From a virus: a stretch of DNA of 40,150 nt. Positions 2,342 through 8,211 of this stretch are shown piece after piece. The notes below the pieces were generated by a model, which saw only the letters and a program-made list of their open reading frames with translations, did not search any database and was not told where the DNA came from. The stretch is from the UHGV virus genome UHGV-0075716. The stretch is one strand, 5' to 3'. Each line of letters starts with the position of its first letter. Positions within the stretch are counted from its first letter, which is position 1. A program made the translations under genes and the position numbers.

Positions 2342-5287
2342 TTAGTGCTTCCCTTCTATTAAGTCTAACCTAGCTTTTATTCTTTCTATTTCTCTGCGCT
2401 GCCATGCCGCCTCGATATAGAATAAGAGATCAGGTCTGACCCCCCATCTAGATCCTGCTGGCGTTATTTCAACGCGCTCAATGATGTCTTCTATTACCAT
2501 CACTGGATTATCATCCTCATCAACAATGATGCTCCCGTCATTATCAGTCAGCGGCATTTCCCTTTGGCCAGTAATGACGTCATCATATACTGCGGGATAA
2601 TCGTCATAGCAAAGAAAGGCATAGCGGCATGTTGTGCTTTCTTCTTCCATGAGTCCGTGAGAAATAAGAACATCACGAAGTTGCTGCGCGATTACACCAT
2701 GATGTATCCTCGCCCCTTCTTCCCCCTTTATAGCGACAGCGTTCAGCCATTTATAAGCGATATACCTGACGTCACCCCAGGCATCCAGCAATGCTTCGTC
2801 AGGAGAGACCGGCTCTGTCTTTAATGTTCCGTCACTGGTAACCACAGGATTGGAGCCAAGATAAACTGTCGAGAACCTGTTTCCCGGACCACCAAGAGCA
2901 TTTACATTATCAAGATAAGGTTTAACATCTCCGTTCTCAAAAAGATGTTCGAGTGCGTTATATACCGCGCGACGTGGAGTACTGCTTCCGGAACCATGCA
3001 ACGTTATCATTGCACCATCTGCTGAAGACGTTGTTTCACCGCCGCTAACGATTAATCTCTGAGCGGTAACATCATCAGACGGTACTTTCTTCGCAATAAT
3101 GGCGTAATTACCCTCAAGTTTGACTTCCGCGCGAACTTGTCCTGATGTACCTGCATGGACAGTCAGTGACTGGACGGCAACATCATCTGTGAAATCAACG
3201 GGTACAGGAACCGTCCTCACGCCTGACGTCGACATAAAAGTAGGAAGCGTTCTGTTAGGAGTGGCTCCGTAGACAAAATCCCTTGAAACAAATTCTTCCT
3301 GTTTAATTTTCACCCTGAAACAATACAAATCAGCCGGGTGACCATCGTGAACATAAGGATATTTTCTGTTGTTATCCCCTATGCTCCATGGGTTTAGAAA
3401 ATCTTCCCCACCGAAAATGTAGTACAGCCAGTTGTCTTTGATACAAACTGAACCAACACCAACCGCAGAGTTAACTATTCCGCCCTGATAAATCTGATCA
3501 GTAACATTAACCCACTCTACATTATCCAGACTCCACTCATTGACGTTAACTCTGGTCATAAATGTTCTTGGATAATTTCCTGCATAACGGTTATCAGGTT
3601 CTCCTCCTTCCCACTCACCAAATGCGCGCTCACTGCCAAAAATAACCAGCTCATCGCCAACTTTGGCAAAAGGAAGGTTTGAGTGATGAACATTATTTGG
3701 GAAGCGAAGAGAATTCCATGATGTACCTAAATCAGAGCTTCTGTGCAATGAACTACCGGGTTGAGTACTTAATGTCCCCCTGGTCGTCAGATACAGAATG
3801 CCATCATAATATTTTACACATGGCTCAGATGCATTCGCCTCATATTCTGCAGGTATGCGTCTGCGAACAAAGCTACCAGGAGAACCGAAAGCATCAGAGA
3901 AATAGAGTATCCCAAGCTCGCGTGGACCAATATCACCATTATGGTAGCCAACAGCAAAACTGTTATCGCTAATCGTCGCAAAACTGTGAATCTCAGTAAC
4001 AGGAGTGCTTCCGTCAACAAAAGAAGGAATAGTTCCAAGACTGGTTTTTCTCCATGGTGACGAGTGAAATGATGTGCCAAAACTCCAGTATCTACCCTCG
4101 TTATTCTGATCCACATCCTGGGTATTTTGCGTCGTAACTGTAAAGGTATTTTTATCAATAACAGTAGTCACCGTCATATTCCCGGTAACATCTGTAACAC
4201 CAGAGTTTGAGAAGTTGACAAAATCACCAGCAAATAATCCGTGATCAGTAATGCGAATATAAGCGACTTGCTGATTTGCTGCTTTCGTTATACCACCATA
4301 AACGCGAAGGCTGCGACTCATTGGGCGATCCCACAACTCTGCAACCTGCAGTTTATTTCCTCTCACGGTCCGCGTCTCAATTACAGCAAAAAGGCGATTT
4401 CTGACAACCCCCATACTCATGCAGTGATAGTTAACTGTGGGATAGTTTTCATGTAAATCTGTAAGCCATTCCGGCGTTGTCCAGGTCTTCCCGTCATCTC
4501 CTGAGCGAACCCATGCAACATGGAGGTTATTTACACCATGGCGGTCTCCAGCCATAAAAGGCGCATAGATGACATTGTCATATACAAACGTTTTATCCTG
4601 CGTCCAGGCGTTGTACCACGGTGTATCTGTAATTTTAAATAACTCTCCCTGGATAAAATCTTCAGAAGCATAAAAAAGAGGCTGACCCGGTATTCTCTCA
4701 AATAAAAAACGAGCATTTTTAAATCGACTGACATCTGGAAGAGTTGATACTTTAAAAGTAAGCCCTCGCCCATCTATCTTTTCACCACCTGTTGCAACAG
4801 AAAGTAATTCTGATAGAGCTGATGTATCATCATGAACACCATCACCAATAGCCCCCCAACCTCTTACATCATAACTGTCTCTCCATCTTGCTATCTGAAG
4901 TTTTGGGTATTTATTCGCTCCATCTGGGTCTTCTAATTGCTGCCGTAGTTGATCTGGGTCATACTTCAGCACATTAGGAAAATAGAACTGCTGCGCACCA
5001 TACGCATCATAAACAGCCATAGAATGGCCTTGCACGGTAACGAATTTGGCAATCTGTCCGTTATATACAGGATATCCAGCAGCGTTAATGATGATTGGTT
5101 GAGAAACAGGAACGTGAGAACCGTCTTCGTTCTCCACATAAGCCTGAATCTGGTTTTCAGGATTTACAGGGTCAGTATCAATTTTACCGATATAAATTTT
5201 GCCATTAGCTACGGCTTTAAAAGAACGCGCCATAGTGAAGAGTTGCGAAGGCATCGATACAATCACATTGGCTGTAATGTCTGTCAT
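2342..5287 (-). CDS. Tailspike: P22 gp9-type head-binding N-terminus fused to endosialidase (sialidase beta-propeller) with C-terminal intramolecular chaperone domain
   Basis: N-terminus [11 protein letters not shown]...[14 protein letters not shown]...VLKYDPDQ resembles P22 tailspike head-binding domain; Asp-boxes SGDDGKTW and SSDLGTSW; C-terminal ...VVTSDGTLK...[12 protein letters not shown]... resembles autocleaving chaperone domains. Confidence 0.85.
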
Positions 5288-5409
5288 TTAATTTGCTCCA
5301 GATACAAGGAATCGCCGAAGCATGGCTACGGTGAATTTTGGGCATAAAAAAACCCAGCCGAAGCTGGGTCGTTGCGTTGGTTATTGACCTACACTTTTCG
5401 TGCAGGTAG

Positions 5410-6333
5410 TTAAAGTTTTATTGAGTGGCACGCTCTATCACGTATCGCTGCGAATGAAGCTATCTCTTTAAGTGCCCAGCTTTGCTCAGCCATTAAATGG
5501 CGAAGTGCTTTTAGTTCAGCTCTTACTGCTGAAACGTCATACCCCGCTTTTGTCAGAATATTGATTAGTTTATACGCCGGACTGCATTCAACGAGTGCGC
5601 TGCGGTCAAGAGCAACAGTATCACCGCATTGCTGCCTGATAATGGCGTAAGGTGCATTTTCAGCAAACCATGAAATCGGGAAGTTAATATCCAGTTTTGG
5701 CGCTGGTAACTCTTCTTGTTTGCCAATGAACTCACCTTCAAGTGGAACTCGAGCTGCAAGTGACAGTGCTTCGGTGAACTGCTCCTCACTGATTTCTTTG
5801 TACGAACATCCAAAATGGGATTTCAGTGAGGACCACATGGTGATCATCGCCTTAGCCTGTTTTTCTTTTGGCAGAGACTGACCGCGACTCATGACGAGTT
5901 GTTTAATGGCTTCCTGCTGTTCAGTGGTGATTTTACCCGGCAACGCCTTTTTAGCTTTGCGTGGGTTAACTACATGACCTTTAGTCCAGTACTCGTATAG
6001 CACATCGTCACACTCTTCCTGATACTGGATTACCTTGTCGCGGATTTCAGGACGGACTTTGTTTGGCTGAATGCTTGAAAGCCAAGCCGCAAACTTACGA
6101 AAGGCAAGGCATATCATTAACTGTTTACCGCCAGCAGAAGGTATTTCGATTTCCGAAATACCTTTGACAAATCTCTGTTTTAATTTAACAAATTGAGCAG
6201 CCCAAACCATACCCATGCCTTCTACAACGGGTTTCATAGGAACGTAAGGTTCATTGTTAATGCTGACCAAAAAGAGATTTGTTCCGTGGAATGGAACGTT
6301 GATTGTATGTTCTGCAATTGCTACACTCGTCAT
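5410..6333 (-). CDS. ant: Antirepressor Ant (AntA N-domain plus KilAC-type C-domain)
   Basis: 307 aa; position downstream of arc and upstream of tailspike as in P22 immI; N-terminal pattern similar to P22 Ant. Confidence 0.8.
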   Translation of the reverse strand: MTSVAIAEHTINVPFHGTNLFLVSINNEPYVPMKPVVEGMGMVWAAQFVKLKQRFVKGISEIEIPSAGGKQLMICLAFRKFAAWLSSIQPNKVRPEIRDKVIQYQEECDDVLYEYWTKGHVVNPRKAKKALPGKITTEQQEAIKQLVMSRGQSLPKEKQAKAMITMWSSLKSHFGCSYKEISEEQFTEALSLAARVPLEGEFIGKQEELPAPKLDINFPISWFAENAPYAIIRQQCGDTVALDRSALVECSPAYKLINILTKAGYDVSAVRAELKALRHLMAEQSWALKEIASFAAIRDRACHSIKL

Positions 6334-6407
6334 GTCGTTAATTCCTATGCGTGGTTTTACGATACCGAAGCCCTGACTGTTACCGCAGTTGGGGCTTCAC
6401 TGTTTTG
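6332..6407 (+). ncRNA. Candidate sar-like antisense sRNA covering the ant start/RBS
   Basis: Sigma70-like promoter TTGATT(6299-6304)-17 nt-TACACT(6322-6327) on the strand opposite ant; imperfect hairpin 6367-6398 followed by T-rich tract; transcript would be ~75 nt and antisense to the ant RBS. Confidence 0.4.
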
Positions 6408-6566
6408 ATTTCTTTGCCGCATCAAGCATCACTTCTGAAAACGTGCGCTTGCCACTGAATACTCTTTCTCTTCTCAATTTTTCGTTCGTGCCAAATGATT
6501 CGCCATGAACAAAATTTGGTCTTAAAATGGTAATCGCAATCTCTTTGACTACTGCATCCAAGCGAA

Positions 6567-6719
6567 TCACACCGTTACCCCCTCTCTCTTCAGGCTGTCT
6601 ATCAGGCGCTTGATAACCTCTGAGTTAAACGACCTGCACTCTTCCTTTGCCCTGCTACCGATAGCATCCTTTAACGACTGCGGCATCCTTACCAAAATCC
6701 TACTTATTTCTTTCTCCAT
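6567..6719 (-). CDS. arc: Arc-type ribbon-helix-helix repressor (start at internal ATG 6719, ~50 aa)
   Basis: MEKEISRILVRMPQSLKDAIGSRAKEECRSFNSEVIKRLIDSLKREGVTV; RSFNSEV motif like P22 Arc (NGRSVNSEI); GGAGG 6 nt upstream of ATG. Confidence 0.8.
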   Translation of the reverse strand: MEKEISRILVRMPQSLKDAIGSRAKEECRSFNSEVIKRLIDSLKREGVTV

Positions 6720-6757
6720 GTTACCCTCCCCACAAACAACTCTTTCCGAATACAAAA

Positions 6758-6813
6758 GATAGCAAAGTGAGTATATCTAGTCAAAATTTTTTTGCATACA
6801 CTTTGATATCAAA
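6758..6813. promoter_or_regulatory. arc-mnt divergent control region with candidate operators
   Basis: TAGC...ATCTA inverted half-sites at 6758-6782 and a perfect 12-bp palindrome TTTGATATCAAA at 6802-6813, 20 bp upstream of mnt. Confidence 0.35.
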
Positions 6814-6833
6814 TTGAATACCAAAGGTGTGAT

Positions 6834-7082
6834 ATGGCAAAGGGTGTGTCAATTTCTCCAACTACGGTAAGAATCCCTGAATCTTTACGCGAGGCTCTTT
6901 CTGTCAGAGCATCAAAAAATGGTCGCTCTGTTAACTCCGAGATCGTCATGATTTTGCAAGCCGCGATTGATGAAGATAGGTCGCCAAAGTCAGTTGAGTC
7001 ATTTGCTCAGCAAGAAGCTGACAAATTCAAAGAGGCGCTGCTTGAGACGCTAAAGACCATGTATGGTAAGGATGAAAAATAA
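6834..7082 (+). CDS. mnt: Mnt-type ribbon-helix-helix repressor
   Basis: 82 aa; KNGRSVNSEIVMILQAAI and C-terminal KFKEALLETLKTMYGK resemble P22 Mnt (ANGRSMNSEL..., ...VFDTLKDLYKK). Confidence 0.85.
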   Translation: MAKGVSISPTTVRIPESLREALSVRASKNGRSVNSEIVMILQAAIDEDRSPKSVESFAQQEADKFKEALLETLKTMYGKDEK

Positions 7083-7618
7083 TGCTGCACACAATTCATT
7101 TCTTATGCCCCGTTAACACTGCCACTGTTGGGCAACTTCAGAACCACTGTCTCACCGCATTATCTCAGGGCGCAACTGAATTAAATATCCATATATCAAG
7201 TCAGGGAGGGGAAACTGCCGCTGGCTTTACTGCGTATAACTTTCTTAAGTCACTCCCTGTTACCGTTAGAACTCACAACATAAGCAATGTTGAATCCATA
7301 GCTAATATCGTTTTCCTGGCTGGCTCAGAACGTTTCGCAAACCCATTATCAAGATTCCTGTTACATCCTCTATTATGGGGCTTTGCCACCCCAGCCGCCG
7401 ACCATGCCAGATTGAGAGAGTACGGGAAATGCCTCGATAACGATCTTGATCGCTTCGTTGAGACGTTCAATATCGACATCGGAACCCATATTAGGTGGGA
7501 ATCCCTGATAGCAGACTCGACCATTTTGGATGCTAACAAGGCTCTTGAGCATGGCATAATTAATTCCATAAAAACTGCAAGGCTGGTATCCAATCAGGCA
7601 AACTGGTGGGTTGTTTGA
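7082..7618 (+). CDS. ClpP-family (S14-like) serine peptidase homologue, translationally coupled to mnt
   Basis: Gap-free match to ClpP core: ISSQGGETAAGFTAYNFL...VTVRTHNISNVESIANIVFLAG versus INSPGGVITAGMSIYDTM...[20 protein letters not shown], Ser aligned; His in LLHPL; Asp later. Start overlaps mnt stop (TAATG). Confidence 0.7.
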   Translation: MLHTIHFLCPVNTATVGQLQNHCLTALSQGATELNIHISSQGGETAAGFTAYNFLKSLPVTVRTHNISNVESIANIVFLAGSERFANPLSRFLLHPLLWGFATPAADHARLREYGKCLDNDLDRFVETFNIDIGTHIRWESLIADSTILDANKALEHGIINSIKTARLVSNQANWWVV

Positions 7619-7643
7619 TGGGTAAATCATGATTACTCCTTAT

Positions 7644-7676
7644 AAAAAACCCACCTGACGGTGGGTTTCATTTCTT
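7644..7676. terminator. Bidirectional rho-independent terminator between the ClpP-like gene and the lipoprotein gene
   Basis: A-run, CCCACC-TGAC-GGTGGG hairpin, T-run. Confidence 0.7.
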
Positions 7677-8094
7677 AATCTTGCTTCGTAGAAGGTATAA
7701 GAGATGCATTTGCCTCTTTTGGCTTCAATGTATACATCCCACCATTAAATGGATCAACAGCAAGCCAACCGATTAACCCACCAAACACAAGGTTTCCACC
7801 AATATACCAACCATTAGCATTGGCTTTGATTGGCAGGGTAACTGGTTCGTACCCATCCTTTTCCATAGTGATCTGGTAGCTCTTTTTGCCAAAATAACTA
7901 CCATCTGACTTGGCAAGAGTTACTCCTTGTGGAGTCTTGCCTTGCGCAACAATCACGCCTGATTCATCTTTTACCTTAAAGCTCGCACCGGAAGGGTTGC
8001 TGTTCACTTGCACAAGTTGCGTTTCATCACCAACAATAGTTGCGCACCCAGATAACATCATAGCGCCAGCAACGACGCCAATAATCCTCTTCAT
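7675..8094 (-). CDS. Lipoprotein (signal peptide with lipobox LSGC), function unknown
   Basis: MKRIIGVVAGAMMLSGCATIV...; start at internal ATG 8094; Gly-rich C-terminal segment. Confidence 0.7.
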   Translation of the reverse strand: MKRIIGVVAGAMMLSGCATIVGDETQLVQVNSNPSGASFKVKDESGVIVAQGKTPQGVTLAKSDGSYFGKKSYQITMEKDGYEPVTLPIKANANGWYIGGNLVFGGLIGWLAVDPFNGGMYTLKPKEANASLIPSTKQD

Positions 8095-8211
8095 ATCAAT
8101 TTCCATATTTAAAAAACCGGAAACATCCTAATGACAAACCATTCAAATGTGAAGTAGGCAAAAGATGTTTGCTTTTTTCATGGTATCCTGCTCAAAACTA
8201 AGGAGGTTGGT

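What the first reader, a model, noticed from the sequence alone, without database searches (positions are those of the whole stretch)
6299..6407. Candidate sar-like antisense RNA over the ant ribosome-binding site
On the strand opposite ant there is a good sigma70 promoter (TTGATT-17-TACACT) inside the first codons of ant. A transcript from it would cross the ant start and RBS and end at a hairpin plus T-tract ~75 nt later in the arc-ant gap. P22 has such an sRNA (sar) that represses ant translation. The 233-bp arc-ant gap here is otherwise unexplained.
Basis: partly seen in the sequence, partly recalled or inferred. Interest (0 to 1): 0.55.

Follow-up and report, generated by a model that had tools for sequence, protein, structure and literature searches.

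The report
sar antisense RNA of P22-like prophage
This is an ordinary copy of sar, the small antisense RNA that P22-like phages use to block translation of their antirepressor gene; it belongs to a curated RNA family and similar sequence occurs in about one in six complete E. coli genomes.

Summary
Window 6335-6401 (+) matches Rfam RF00262 (sar RNA) over the full model at 77.7 bits (gathering score 43, E 7.6e-16). It is the only Rfam family found in the 40-kb window. It sits where P22's annotated sar sits. The promoter lies inside the first codons of ant on the opposite strand (TTGATT 6299-6304, 17 nt, TGc-TACACT 6322-6327). By homology the start is G6334, next to the ant ATG. The 5' hairpin carries the anti-Shine-Dalgarno UCCU in its loop. 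A 14-bp terminator hairpin (6367-6398) is followed by a T run (6403-6406). The context is a complete immI module: mnt, Pant, arc, ant. All 16 related loci examined also carry sar. The 5' stem covaries between phage types and the terminator hairpin is almost invariant. Two points need correcting. The promoter match alone is at chance level (8/12; 150 comparable sites in the window). The 233-bp arc-ant gap is not empty: besides sar it holds a 57-codon ORF in a slot that carries different small ORFs in different relatives. Expression was not tested. Verdict: already known, low interest.

The parts
6299..6327 (+). Psar promoter: -35 TTGATT (6299-6304), 17-nt spacer, extended -10 TGc (6319-6321) and -10 TACACT (6322-6327). 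It lies inside ant codons 3-12 on the opposite strand.
   Evidence: Sequence. It aligns position for position with P22's annotated sar promoter GTGTTA-17-TATACT. 'TTGCTA' (the TGn extension plus the start of the -10) is kept in all 11 phage sequences. On consensus alone it scores 8/12, which is not above chance.
6334..6406 (+). sar antisense RNA, about 71-74 nt. The inferred +1 is G6334 and the inferred 3' end lies in the T run 6403-6406. It is fully complementary to the ant mRNA leader, positions -1 to about -72.
   Evidence: Rfam RF00262 hit at 6335-6401, 77.7 bits, E 7.6e-16, model positions 1-68 of 68. The start and end are inferred from the coordinates annotated in the P22 record. The fold is -28.3 kcal/mol, z = -4.24.
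6335..6362 (+). sar 5' stem-loop. The stem is UCGU(U)A / U(U)ACGA. The loop carries the anti-Shine-Dalgarno UCCU (6343-6346), complementary to the ant AGGA that lies 9 nt upstream of the ATG.
   Evidence: Four of the 6 stem pairs show changes on both sides across phage types. This segment is identical in CUS-3, PA45B and MS 21-1.
6367..6398 (+). sar 3' hairpin, the intrinsic terminator: 14 bp with loop UACC. It is followed by ACUGUUUUGAUUUCUUU. It is also the shared segment at which the mosaic joints of this region fall.
   Evidence: Terminator scan and fold. Nine of 14 pairs never vary across the 13 sequences. Identity profiles show one genome diverging just after the hairpin and another becoming identical just before it.
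5410..6333 (-). ant, the antirepressor gene and the target of sar. Its Shine-Dalgarno AGGA is at 6346-6343 and its ATG at 6333-6331.
   Evidence: ORF. Pfam PF10547 P22_AR_N, E 6.9e-40. PHROG anti-repressor Ant, E about 1e-68. In the predicted leader fold the SD is unpaired.
6397..6570 (-). orf57, a 57-codon ORF between arc and ant. Its GTG start overlaps the arc stop (GTGA) and its stop codon lies in the last bases of the sar terminator stem. Whether it encodes a protein is uncertain.
   Evidence: ORF. It matches phrog_17642 at E 1.3e-43 and has no Pfam hit. It is annotated as hypothetical in phiv205-1 and PA45B. Only close homologues exist. Against Klebsiella aerogenes there are 8 nonsynonymous and 3 synonymous codon changes. 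The AlphaFold2 model has pLDDT 53.5.
6567..6722 (-). arc, the Arc repressor gene and first gene of the Pant operon.
   Evidence: Pfam PF03869 Arc, E 8.4e-12. It differs by one nucleotide from phiv205-1 arc.
6756..6784 (-). Candidate Pant promoter, TTGACT-17-TATCTT with an upstream TG. It would drive arc, orf57 and ant.
   Evidence: Promoter scan, 9/12. Its position corresponds to the Pant annotated in P22 between mnt and arc. This is a consensus and position match only.
6834..7082 (+). mnt, the Mnt-type ribbon-helix-helix repressor gene, transcribed divergently from arc.
   Evidence: Pfam Arc and FitA-like RHH domains. The best PHROG is phrog_2685, E 8e-32; that family is named 'partition protein ATPase', the same label the P22 mnt record carries.

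Best explanation
Window 6299-6406 (+) is the sar gene of a P22-like (Lederbergvirus) E. coli prophage.

Proposed mechanism:
1. A sigma-70 promoter with an extended -10 lies inside the first 12 codons of ant and points the other way.
2. It makes an RNA of about 70 nt, starting at the base next to the ant start codon and ending at an intrinsic terminator.
3. The RNA is the exact complement of the ant mRNA leader. It presents the anti-Shine-Dalgarno UCCU in the loop of its 5' hairpin.
4. It pairs with the ant ribosome-binding site and blocks translation initiation. This keeps antirepressor synthesis low, on top of the transcriptional control of Pant by Mnt and Arc.

What is shown here: the sequence and structure homology, the position, the gene context and the covariation. 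What is inferred from P22 and not tested here: transcription, the exact RNA ends and the repression of ant.
For: - Rfam sar (RF00262) matches the full model at 77.7 bits against a gathering score of 43, E 7.6e-16. It is the only Rfam family above threshold in the whole window.
- The alignment with P22 is collinear. The P22 record annotates the sar promoter, the antisense RNA and the terminator at the corresponding positions. The epsilon34 record does the same.
- The predicted fold has two hairpins, at -28.3 kcal/mol and z = -4.24.
- The 5' stem keeps pairing through changes on both sides in 4 of 6 pairs. The covariation score is 0.200 against 0.084 in shuffles (0 of 500 reach it), and all slid registers score lower.
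- The gene context is arc, ant and mnt with a Pant-like promoter.
- sar was found above the gathering score in all 16 related loci from E. coli, Salmonella and Klebsiella phages and prophages.
[quoted passage not shown] It was detected by small-RNA sequencing during P22 infection (PMC13397905).
Against: - No expression data exist for this element.
- The promoter matches the consensus at only 8/12, which is a chance-level score. Its -10 hexamer is TACACT, whereas 8 of the 10 other phages printed have TATACT. Activity could therefore differ from P22.
- The near-invariance of the terminator hairpin gives no covariation support for that helix.
- Because sar is a cis-antisense RNA, its complementarity to the target is automatic and is not independent evidence.
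Confidence: 0.93

Rival explanations
1. The conserved hairpin and its flanks are kept mainly as a recombination 'boundary sequence' or as a structure in the ant mRNA leader. On this view the plus-strand promoter is a by-product of the conserved Ant N-terminus (M-x-S-I/V-A-I), so no functional antisense RNA is made in this phage.
For: - The mosaic joints fall at the edges of the hairpin. The window is 100% identical to CU37RT-2 up to 6406. It is identical to phiv205-1 from about 6363 onwards, apart from two bases in the hairpin loop.
- CUS-3 annotates this stretch as a 'boundary sequence'.
- The promoter hexamers overlap coding sequence and score only 8/12.
Against: - In P22 the homologous promoter and RNA are annotated features of the genome record and are described as studied experimentally in papers read here. 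They are not merely predictions.
- The 5' stem covaries in the sense expected for a folded RNA.
- On the ant strand the hairpin has no U tract, the scan lists no minus-strand terminator there, and the leader fold is not exceptional (z = -1.47).
- A role as a recombination joint does not exclude a role as the sar terminator.
Confidence: 0.04
2. The element is a decayed sar. The sequence is homologous, but the T-to-C change in the -10 hexamer (TATACT to TACACT) or the insertion of orf57 has disabled it, and ant here is controlled by Arc and Mnt only.
For: - The -10 hexamer differs from the TATACT of 8 of the 10 other phages printed.
- The locus architecture differs from P22 by an extra ORF upstream of the target.
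Against: - The change is at the third position of the -10 hexamer, which is its least conserved position (established knowledge of sigma-70 promoters).
- The -35 hexamer is closer to consensus than P22's: TTGATT against GTGTTA.
- The extended -10 TG is intact.
- The identical Psar-sar sequence is kept in independent genomes. CU37RT-2 is 100% identical over the stretch compared (6240-6406) and MS 21-1 differs only by one base in the terminator loop. Sixteen E. coli records are at least 99% identical over 6299-6410.
- All RNA structural elements are intact, and the Rfam score lies within the range seen in intact phages, 44.8-97.8 bits.
Confidence: 0.03

Closest known systems
sar RNA of Salmonella phage P22 (Rfam RF00262; Liao et al. 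1987, Wu et al. 1987, Schaefer & McClure 1997, as cited in PMC2629481)
   Same: - The position is the same: the promoter lies in the first ant codons on the opposite strand, and +1 is next to the ant ATG.
- The size is similar, about 70 nt.
- The plan is the same two hairpins, with the anti-SD in the 5' loop.
- The 32-nt terminator hairpin is identical in sequence to P22's.
- The immI context is the same: mnt, Pant, arc, ant.
   Different: - The 5' hairpin and the RBS complement are of the CUS-3/TL-2011b sequence type, not the P22 type.
- The -10 hexamer is TACACT rather than TATACT, and the -35 hexamer is TTGATT rather than GTGTTA.
- The T run after the terminator is longer.
- The 3' end abuts the stop codon of an extra 57-codon ORF rather than that of arc. 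The target region is therefore the orf57-ant junction, not the arc-ant junction.
c4 antisense RNA of phages P1 and P7
   Same: It is a small phage RNA that blocks translation of an antirepressor (ant) mRNA by pairing around the ribosome-binding site through loop sequences (PMC12197685).
   Different: c4 is encoded elsewhere and acts in trans, as listed in the table of PMC12197685. It is unrelated in sequence: no Rfam family other than sar reaches its gathering score in the window.
OOP RNA of lambdoid phages
   Same: It is a short cis-encoded antisense RNA of a temperate phage that tunes the lysis-lysogeny decision (PMC12197685).
   Different: OOP is an antisense RNA that controls cII expression (PMC12197685), not a block on the ribosome-binding site of ant. 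It belongs to a different family and there is no match to it here.

Membership tests
sar RNA (Rfam RF00262) | Sequence and secondary structure match the curated covariance model above its gathering score. | tested here: met
   77.7 bits against 43, E 7.6e-16, model positions 1-68 of 68, not truncated.
sar RNA (Rfam RF00262) | Encoded antisense to the leader and ribosome-binding site of a P22-type ant gene, with the 5' end next to the ant start codon. | tested here: met
   The hit starts at 6335 and the ant ATG complement is at 6331-6333. ant carries PF10547 at E 6.9e-40. The SD AGGA (6346-6343) lies within the RNA's complement.
sar RNA (Rfam RF00262) | Own promoter (Psar) inside the first ant codons, convergent with Pant. 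| tested here: inconclusive
   The hexamers and an extended -10 TG sit at positions homologous to P22's annotated Psar. The consensus score alone is at chance level, and promoter activity cannot be measured here.
sar RNA (Rfam RF00262) | Two stem-loops: a 5' hairpin with the anti-SD in its loop, and a 3' G+C-rich hairpin that acts as an intrinsic terminator. | tested here: met
   The minimum-free-energy fold shows both hairpins (z = -4.24). The terminator scan finds the 3' hairpin. The 5' stem has 4 of 6 pairs with changes on both sides.
sar RNA (Rfam RF00262) | immI context: arc upstream of ant in one operon, with mnt transcribed divergently. | tested here: met
   arc is at 6567-6722 (-), ant at 5410-6333 (-) and mnt at 6834-7082 (+). 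There is an extra ORF between arc and ant.
sar RNA (Rfam RF00262) | Made as an RNA of about 68-69 nt that represses ant translation. | not testable with these tools
   This is known for P22 only. No transcript data are available for this window.
c4 antisense RNA (P1/P7) | Match to any curated RNA family other than sar, which would include c4 if Rfam holds a c4 model. | tested here: not met
   Only sar reaches a gathering score in the window. No c4 family appears even at E <= 10 in 5000-8000. I did not confirm that Rfam holds a c4 model.

The most novel reading that the evidence does not exclude
The sar family may come in discrete specificity classes, which would work like the heteroimmunity of the P1 and P7 c4 RNAs. 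The 5' hairpin, which covers the RBS, occurs in at least four sequence types: P22 type, CUS-3/window type, Kapi1/Emek/Klebsiella type and SPN3UB type. The terminator hairpin stays nearly invariant and serves as the joint at which ant modules and arc-plus-cargo modules are exchanged. The slot between arc and that joint carries interchangeable small ORFs of unknown function (orf57, orf73, a Cys-rich 67-aa ORF). Co-resident P22-like prophages would then cross-repress each other's antirepressors, or fail to, according to sar type.
Probability: 0.2. Interest if true: 0.35.

Novelty: already known. Interest (0 to 1): 0.1.

Why it matters
It matters little beyond correct annotation. sar is a long-known antisense regulator, and this copy would be labelled by any Rfam scan.

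Three practical points follow:
- Sequence similar to the sar region occurs in 862 of 5426 complete E. coli genomes. The RefSeq feature rows returned under those matches list only protein-coding genes, so it appears to go unannotated.
- The arc-ant 'gap' in this lineage is a cargo slot that holds small ORFs, not empty spacer.
- The sar terminator hairpin marks a recombination joint in the mosaic immI region.

Tried and rejected
- **Promoter by consensus alone:** rejected as evidence. The match is 8/12, the scan does not list it, and the window holds 150 comparable sites.
- **Coding test of orf57 by substitution pattern:** it gave no support. The ORF is nucleotide-identical in phiv205-1 and PA45B. 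The only diverged copy found, from Klebsiella aerogenes, gives 8 nonsynonymous against 3 synonymous codon changes.
- **Variants of orf57:** frameshifted or extended forms exist (P0004 and P0006; L012).
- **Structure of orf57:** the AlphaFold2 model has pLDDT 53.5, too low for a fold search.
- **orf57 against orf73 of Emek:** no detectable similarity, although MAFFT forced a 28% alignment.
- **Pfam on the two alternative slot ORFs:** nothing found.
- **Schaefer & McClure 1997 (PMC1369469):** not held in the library. Structural details of P22 sar are therefore taken from Rfam and from secondary citations.
- **Search for 'Psar/Pant':** nothing returned on the interplay of the two promoters, and the one P22-related paper among the hits was not opened. 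I make no claim about how Pant transcription affects Psar.
- **MAFFT alignment of sar:** it puts the P22-type 5' arm one column out of structural register. The helix-1 counts therefore understate pairing for P22-type sequences. The individual folds show a 6-bp stem there.

Full report
**Observation**

- TTGATT lies at 6299-6304, then a 17-nt spacer, then TACACT at 6322-6327.
- The complement of the ant start codon is at 6331-6333.
- A hairpin of 14 pairs (7 G-C, 4-nt loop) occupies 6367-6398. It is followed by ACTGTTTTGA, with the T run at 6403-6406. One search lists it as terminator-like.
- ant is the 307-codon ORF at 5410-6333 (-). arc ends at 6567, so the arc-ant gap is 6334-6566, which is 233 bp.
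- The 76-nt RNA from 6335 folds into two hairpins at -28.3 kcal/mol, z = -4.24, and none of 200 shuffles fold as well.

**Is it more than chance?**

The promoter alone is not.
- It matches the consensus at 8/12 and falls below the 9/12 threshold of the scan.
- A count over the window finds 150 sites at least as good on the two strands. Fifteen of them also carry a TG two bases upstream of the -10 hexamer, as this one does.

The element as a whole is far above chance.
- The Rfam covariance model for sar RNA (RF00262) matches 6335-6401 (+) over model positions 1-68 of 68 at 77.7 bits. The gathering score is 43 and the E-value is 7.6e-16.
- It is the only family above threshold in all 40 kb.

**Homology with the characterised element**

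The P22 genome record annotates a sar promoter, a sar antisense RNA and a sar terminator between arc and ant. The epsilon34 record does the same 'by similarity with P22 Psar'. The window aligns collinearly with both.
- P22 Psar is GTGTTA-17-TATACT, and the annotated +1 is the G immediately after the complement of the ant ATG.
- The window has TTGATT-17-TACACT with the same spacing, which puts the homologous +1 at G6334.
- The RNA therefore covers the ant leader from position -1 upstream, including the Shine-Dalgarno AGGA (6346-6343 on the minus strand, 9 nt before the ATG). It does not cover the AUG itself.
- 'TTGCTA', which spans the TGn extension and the start of the -10 hexamer, is present in all 11 phage sequences printed. 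This gives an extended -10 promoter.
- The P22 annotation ends 6 nt after the hairpin. The equivalent point here falls in the T run, so the RNA would be about 71-74 nt long.

**Context**

The neighbours form a complete P22-type immI module on the minus strand.
- A Pant-like promoter, TTGACT-17-TATCTT, lies at 6784-6756.
- arc lies at 6567-6722 (PF03869, E 8.4e-12).
- ant carries PF10547 at E 6.9e-40 and matches the PHROG anti-repressor Ant families at about 1e-68.
- mnt is transcribed divergently at 6834-7082.
- The tailspike gene follows at 2342-5287.
- Overall the window is a Lederbergvirus-type E. coli prophage. It is closest to phiv205-1 (96.9% identity over 73% of the first 25 kb) and CUS-3 (95.7% over 71%).

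**Structure and covariation**

- Rfam sar was found above the gathering score in all 16 related loci fetched, from E. coli, Salmonella and Klebsiella phages and prophages. Scores ranged from 44.8 to 97.8 bits.
- Individual folds give the same two-hairpin plan in all but TL-2011b.
- The 5' hairpin comes in several sequence types, most with an intact stem:
  - P22 type: GUUGGU...ACUGAC.
  - Window/CUS-3 type: UCGUUA...UUACGA.
  - Kapi1/Emek/Klebsiella type: UCAAUA...UGUUGA.
  - SPN3UB type, which keeps a shorter stem of 4 outer pairs.
- On alignment A4, 4 of the 6 pairs of this helix show changes on both sides. The covariation score is 0.200 against 0.084 in shuffles (0 of 500 reach it), and every slid register is lower.
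- MAFFT puts the P22-type 5' arm one column out of register, so these counts understate the pairing.
- The loop always carries a CU-rich anti-SD (UCCU here).
- The 3' hairpin is almost invariant: 9 of 14 pairs never vary. It therefore offers no covariation evidence.
- On the ant strand the same palindrome has no U tract. The leader fold is unremarkable (z = -1.47) and leaves the SD unpaired.

**Mechanism**

In P22, sar is a 68/69-nt RNA that pairs with ant mRNA at the ribosome-binding site and prevents translation initiation. It acts in addition to the Mnt and Arc repressors and is needed for proper establishment of lysogeny (PMC12197685; PMC7968456; PMC2629481). It was seen again by small-RNA sequencing of P22-infected cells (PMC13397905).

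I assign the same mechanism to the window's element. Homology, position, structure and context are shown here. Transcription, the RNA ends and repression are inferred.

**How this copy differs from P22**

1. The 5' hairpin and the RBS complement are of the CUS-3 type.
2. The -10 hexamer is TACACT, coupled to a Val codon in Ant where P22 and CUS-3 have Ile. The -35 hexamer is nearer to consensus than P22's.
3. The region is visibly mosaic around the terminator hairpin:
   - The window is 100% identical to E. coli CU37RT-2 up to 6406 and unrelated beyond.
   - It is identical to phiv205-1 from about 6363 onwards, apart from two bases in the hairpin loop, and to PA45B from about 6331 onwards, apart from one loop base.
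   - MS 21-1 diverges from it just after 6398.
   - CUS-3 annotates this stretch as a 'boundary sequence'.
4. The arc-ant gap is not empty. The 174-nt ORF at 6397-6570 (-) starts with a GTG that overlaps the arc stop (GTGA, preceded by GAGGGGG). It ends inside the last bases of the terminator stem.

**The ORF slot between arc and sar**

- orf57 matches phrog_17642 at E 1.3e-43 but has no Pfam hit.
- It is annotated as 'hypothetical protein' in phiv205-1 and PA45B. It has the same synteny in Klebsiella aerogenes.
- Relatives carry other ORFs at the same place, each starting 4 nt inside the arc stop:
  - an unrelated orf73 in Emek, 611R6 and CU37RT-2;
  - a Cys-rich 67-codon ORF in MS 21-1.
- P22, epsilon34 and N7 have nothing there, and CUS-3 has no annotated arc gene.
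- Whether orf57 makes a protein is open:
  - The only diverged copy shows 8 nonsynonymous against 3 synonymous codon changes.
  - Frameshifted variants exist.
  - The AlphaFold2 model is poor, with pLDDT 53.5.

**Distribution**

Sequence similar to 6299-6410 occurs in 862 of 5426 complete E. coli genomes, and 16 records are at least 99% identical. The feature rows returned under these matches list only protein-coding genes, so sar appears to go unannotated in RefSeq E. coli genomes.

**Verdict**

This is a member of the long-known sar family, so it is already known and of low interest.

The most novel reading the data allow is that sar 5'-hairpin types define specificity classes, and that the invariant terminator serves as the exchange joint next to a cargo slot. 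That reading is speculative, and I give it a probability of about 0.2.

Noticed in passing
window 6397-6570 (-): A 57-codon ORF (orf57, phrog_17642, no Pfam hit) lies between arc and ant. It is coupled to the arc stop by a GTGA overlap and ends inside the sar terminator stem. Its coding status is unclear: 8 nonsynonymous against 3 synonymous codon changes versus Klebsiella aerogenes, frameshifted variants exist, and the AlphaFold2 pLDDT is 53.5.
   Followed up: partly
L006 637-858 (Emek), L005 687-908 (611R6) and L014 2598-2819 (CU37RT-2); L013 1373-1576 (MS 21-1); corresponds to window 6400-6566: The slot between the arc stop and the sar terminator carries unrelated small ORFs in different relatives. 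These are orf57, orf73 and a Cys-rich 67-aa ORF; a 'ClpX C4-type zinc finger protein' is among the features RefSeq lists under the match in two other E. coli genomes (H122 and H124), but its position and its relation to this ORF were not checked. Each ORF starts 4 nt inside the arc stop. P22, epsilon34 and N7 have nothing there.
   Followed up: partly
window 6363-6406: Mosaic joints flank the sar terminator hairpin. The window is 100% identical to E. coli CU37RT-2 up to 6406. From about 6363 onwards it is identical to phiv205-1 apart from two bases in the hairpin loop. The hairpin behaves as a recombination boundary sequence.
   Followed up: yes
window 7082-7618 (+): A 178-aa Clp-protease-like ORF (PF00574, E 3.4e-12; PHROG 'head maturation protease') lies directly after mnt, outside the morphogenesis genes. 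PGAP names it 'ATP-dependent Clp protease proteolytic subunit' in relatives. Two related E. coli genomes have a 'ClpX C4-type zinc finger protein' among the RefSeq features listed in this region.
   Followed up: no
window 6280-6298 (both strands): A short hairpin (TGTTCCGTGGAATGGAACG) inside ant directly abuts the Psar -35 hexamer. The terminator scan lists it on both strands. It is only partly conserved in CUS-3 and may be chance.
   Followed up: no
window 7675-8106 (-): A 143-aa ORF has a signal peptide and an LSGC lipobox, so it looks like a lipoprotein. It lies in the variable 'ant moron' region between the immI genes and the large 707-aa ORF.
   Followed up: no
window 2342-5287 (-): The 981-aa tailspike has a P22-type head-binding N-terminus. 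The matching region in CUS-3 includes the endosialidase tailspike siaK1 among its annotated features and is the same length (2946 nt). This suggests a phage specific for the K1 capsule.
   Followed up: no
E. coli RefSeq genomes: Sequence similar to the sar region is present in 862 of 5426 complete E. coli genomes. The annotated features returned under the matches are only CDSs, so this Rfam family seems to go unannotated there.
   Followed up: partly
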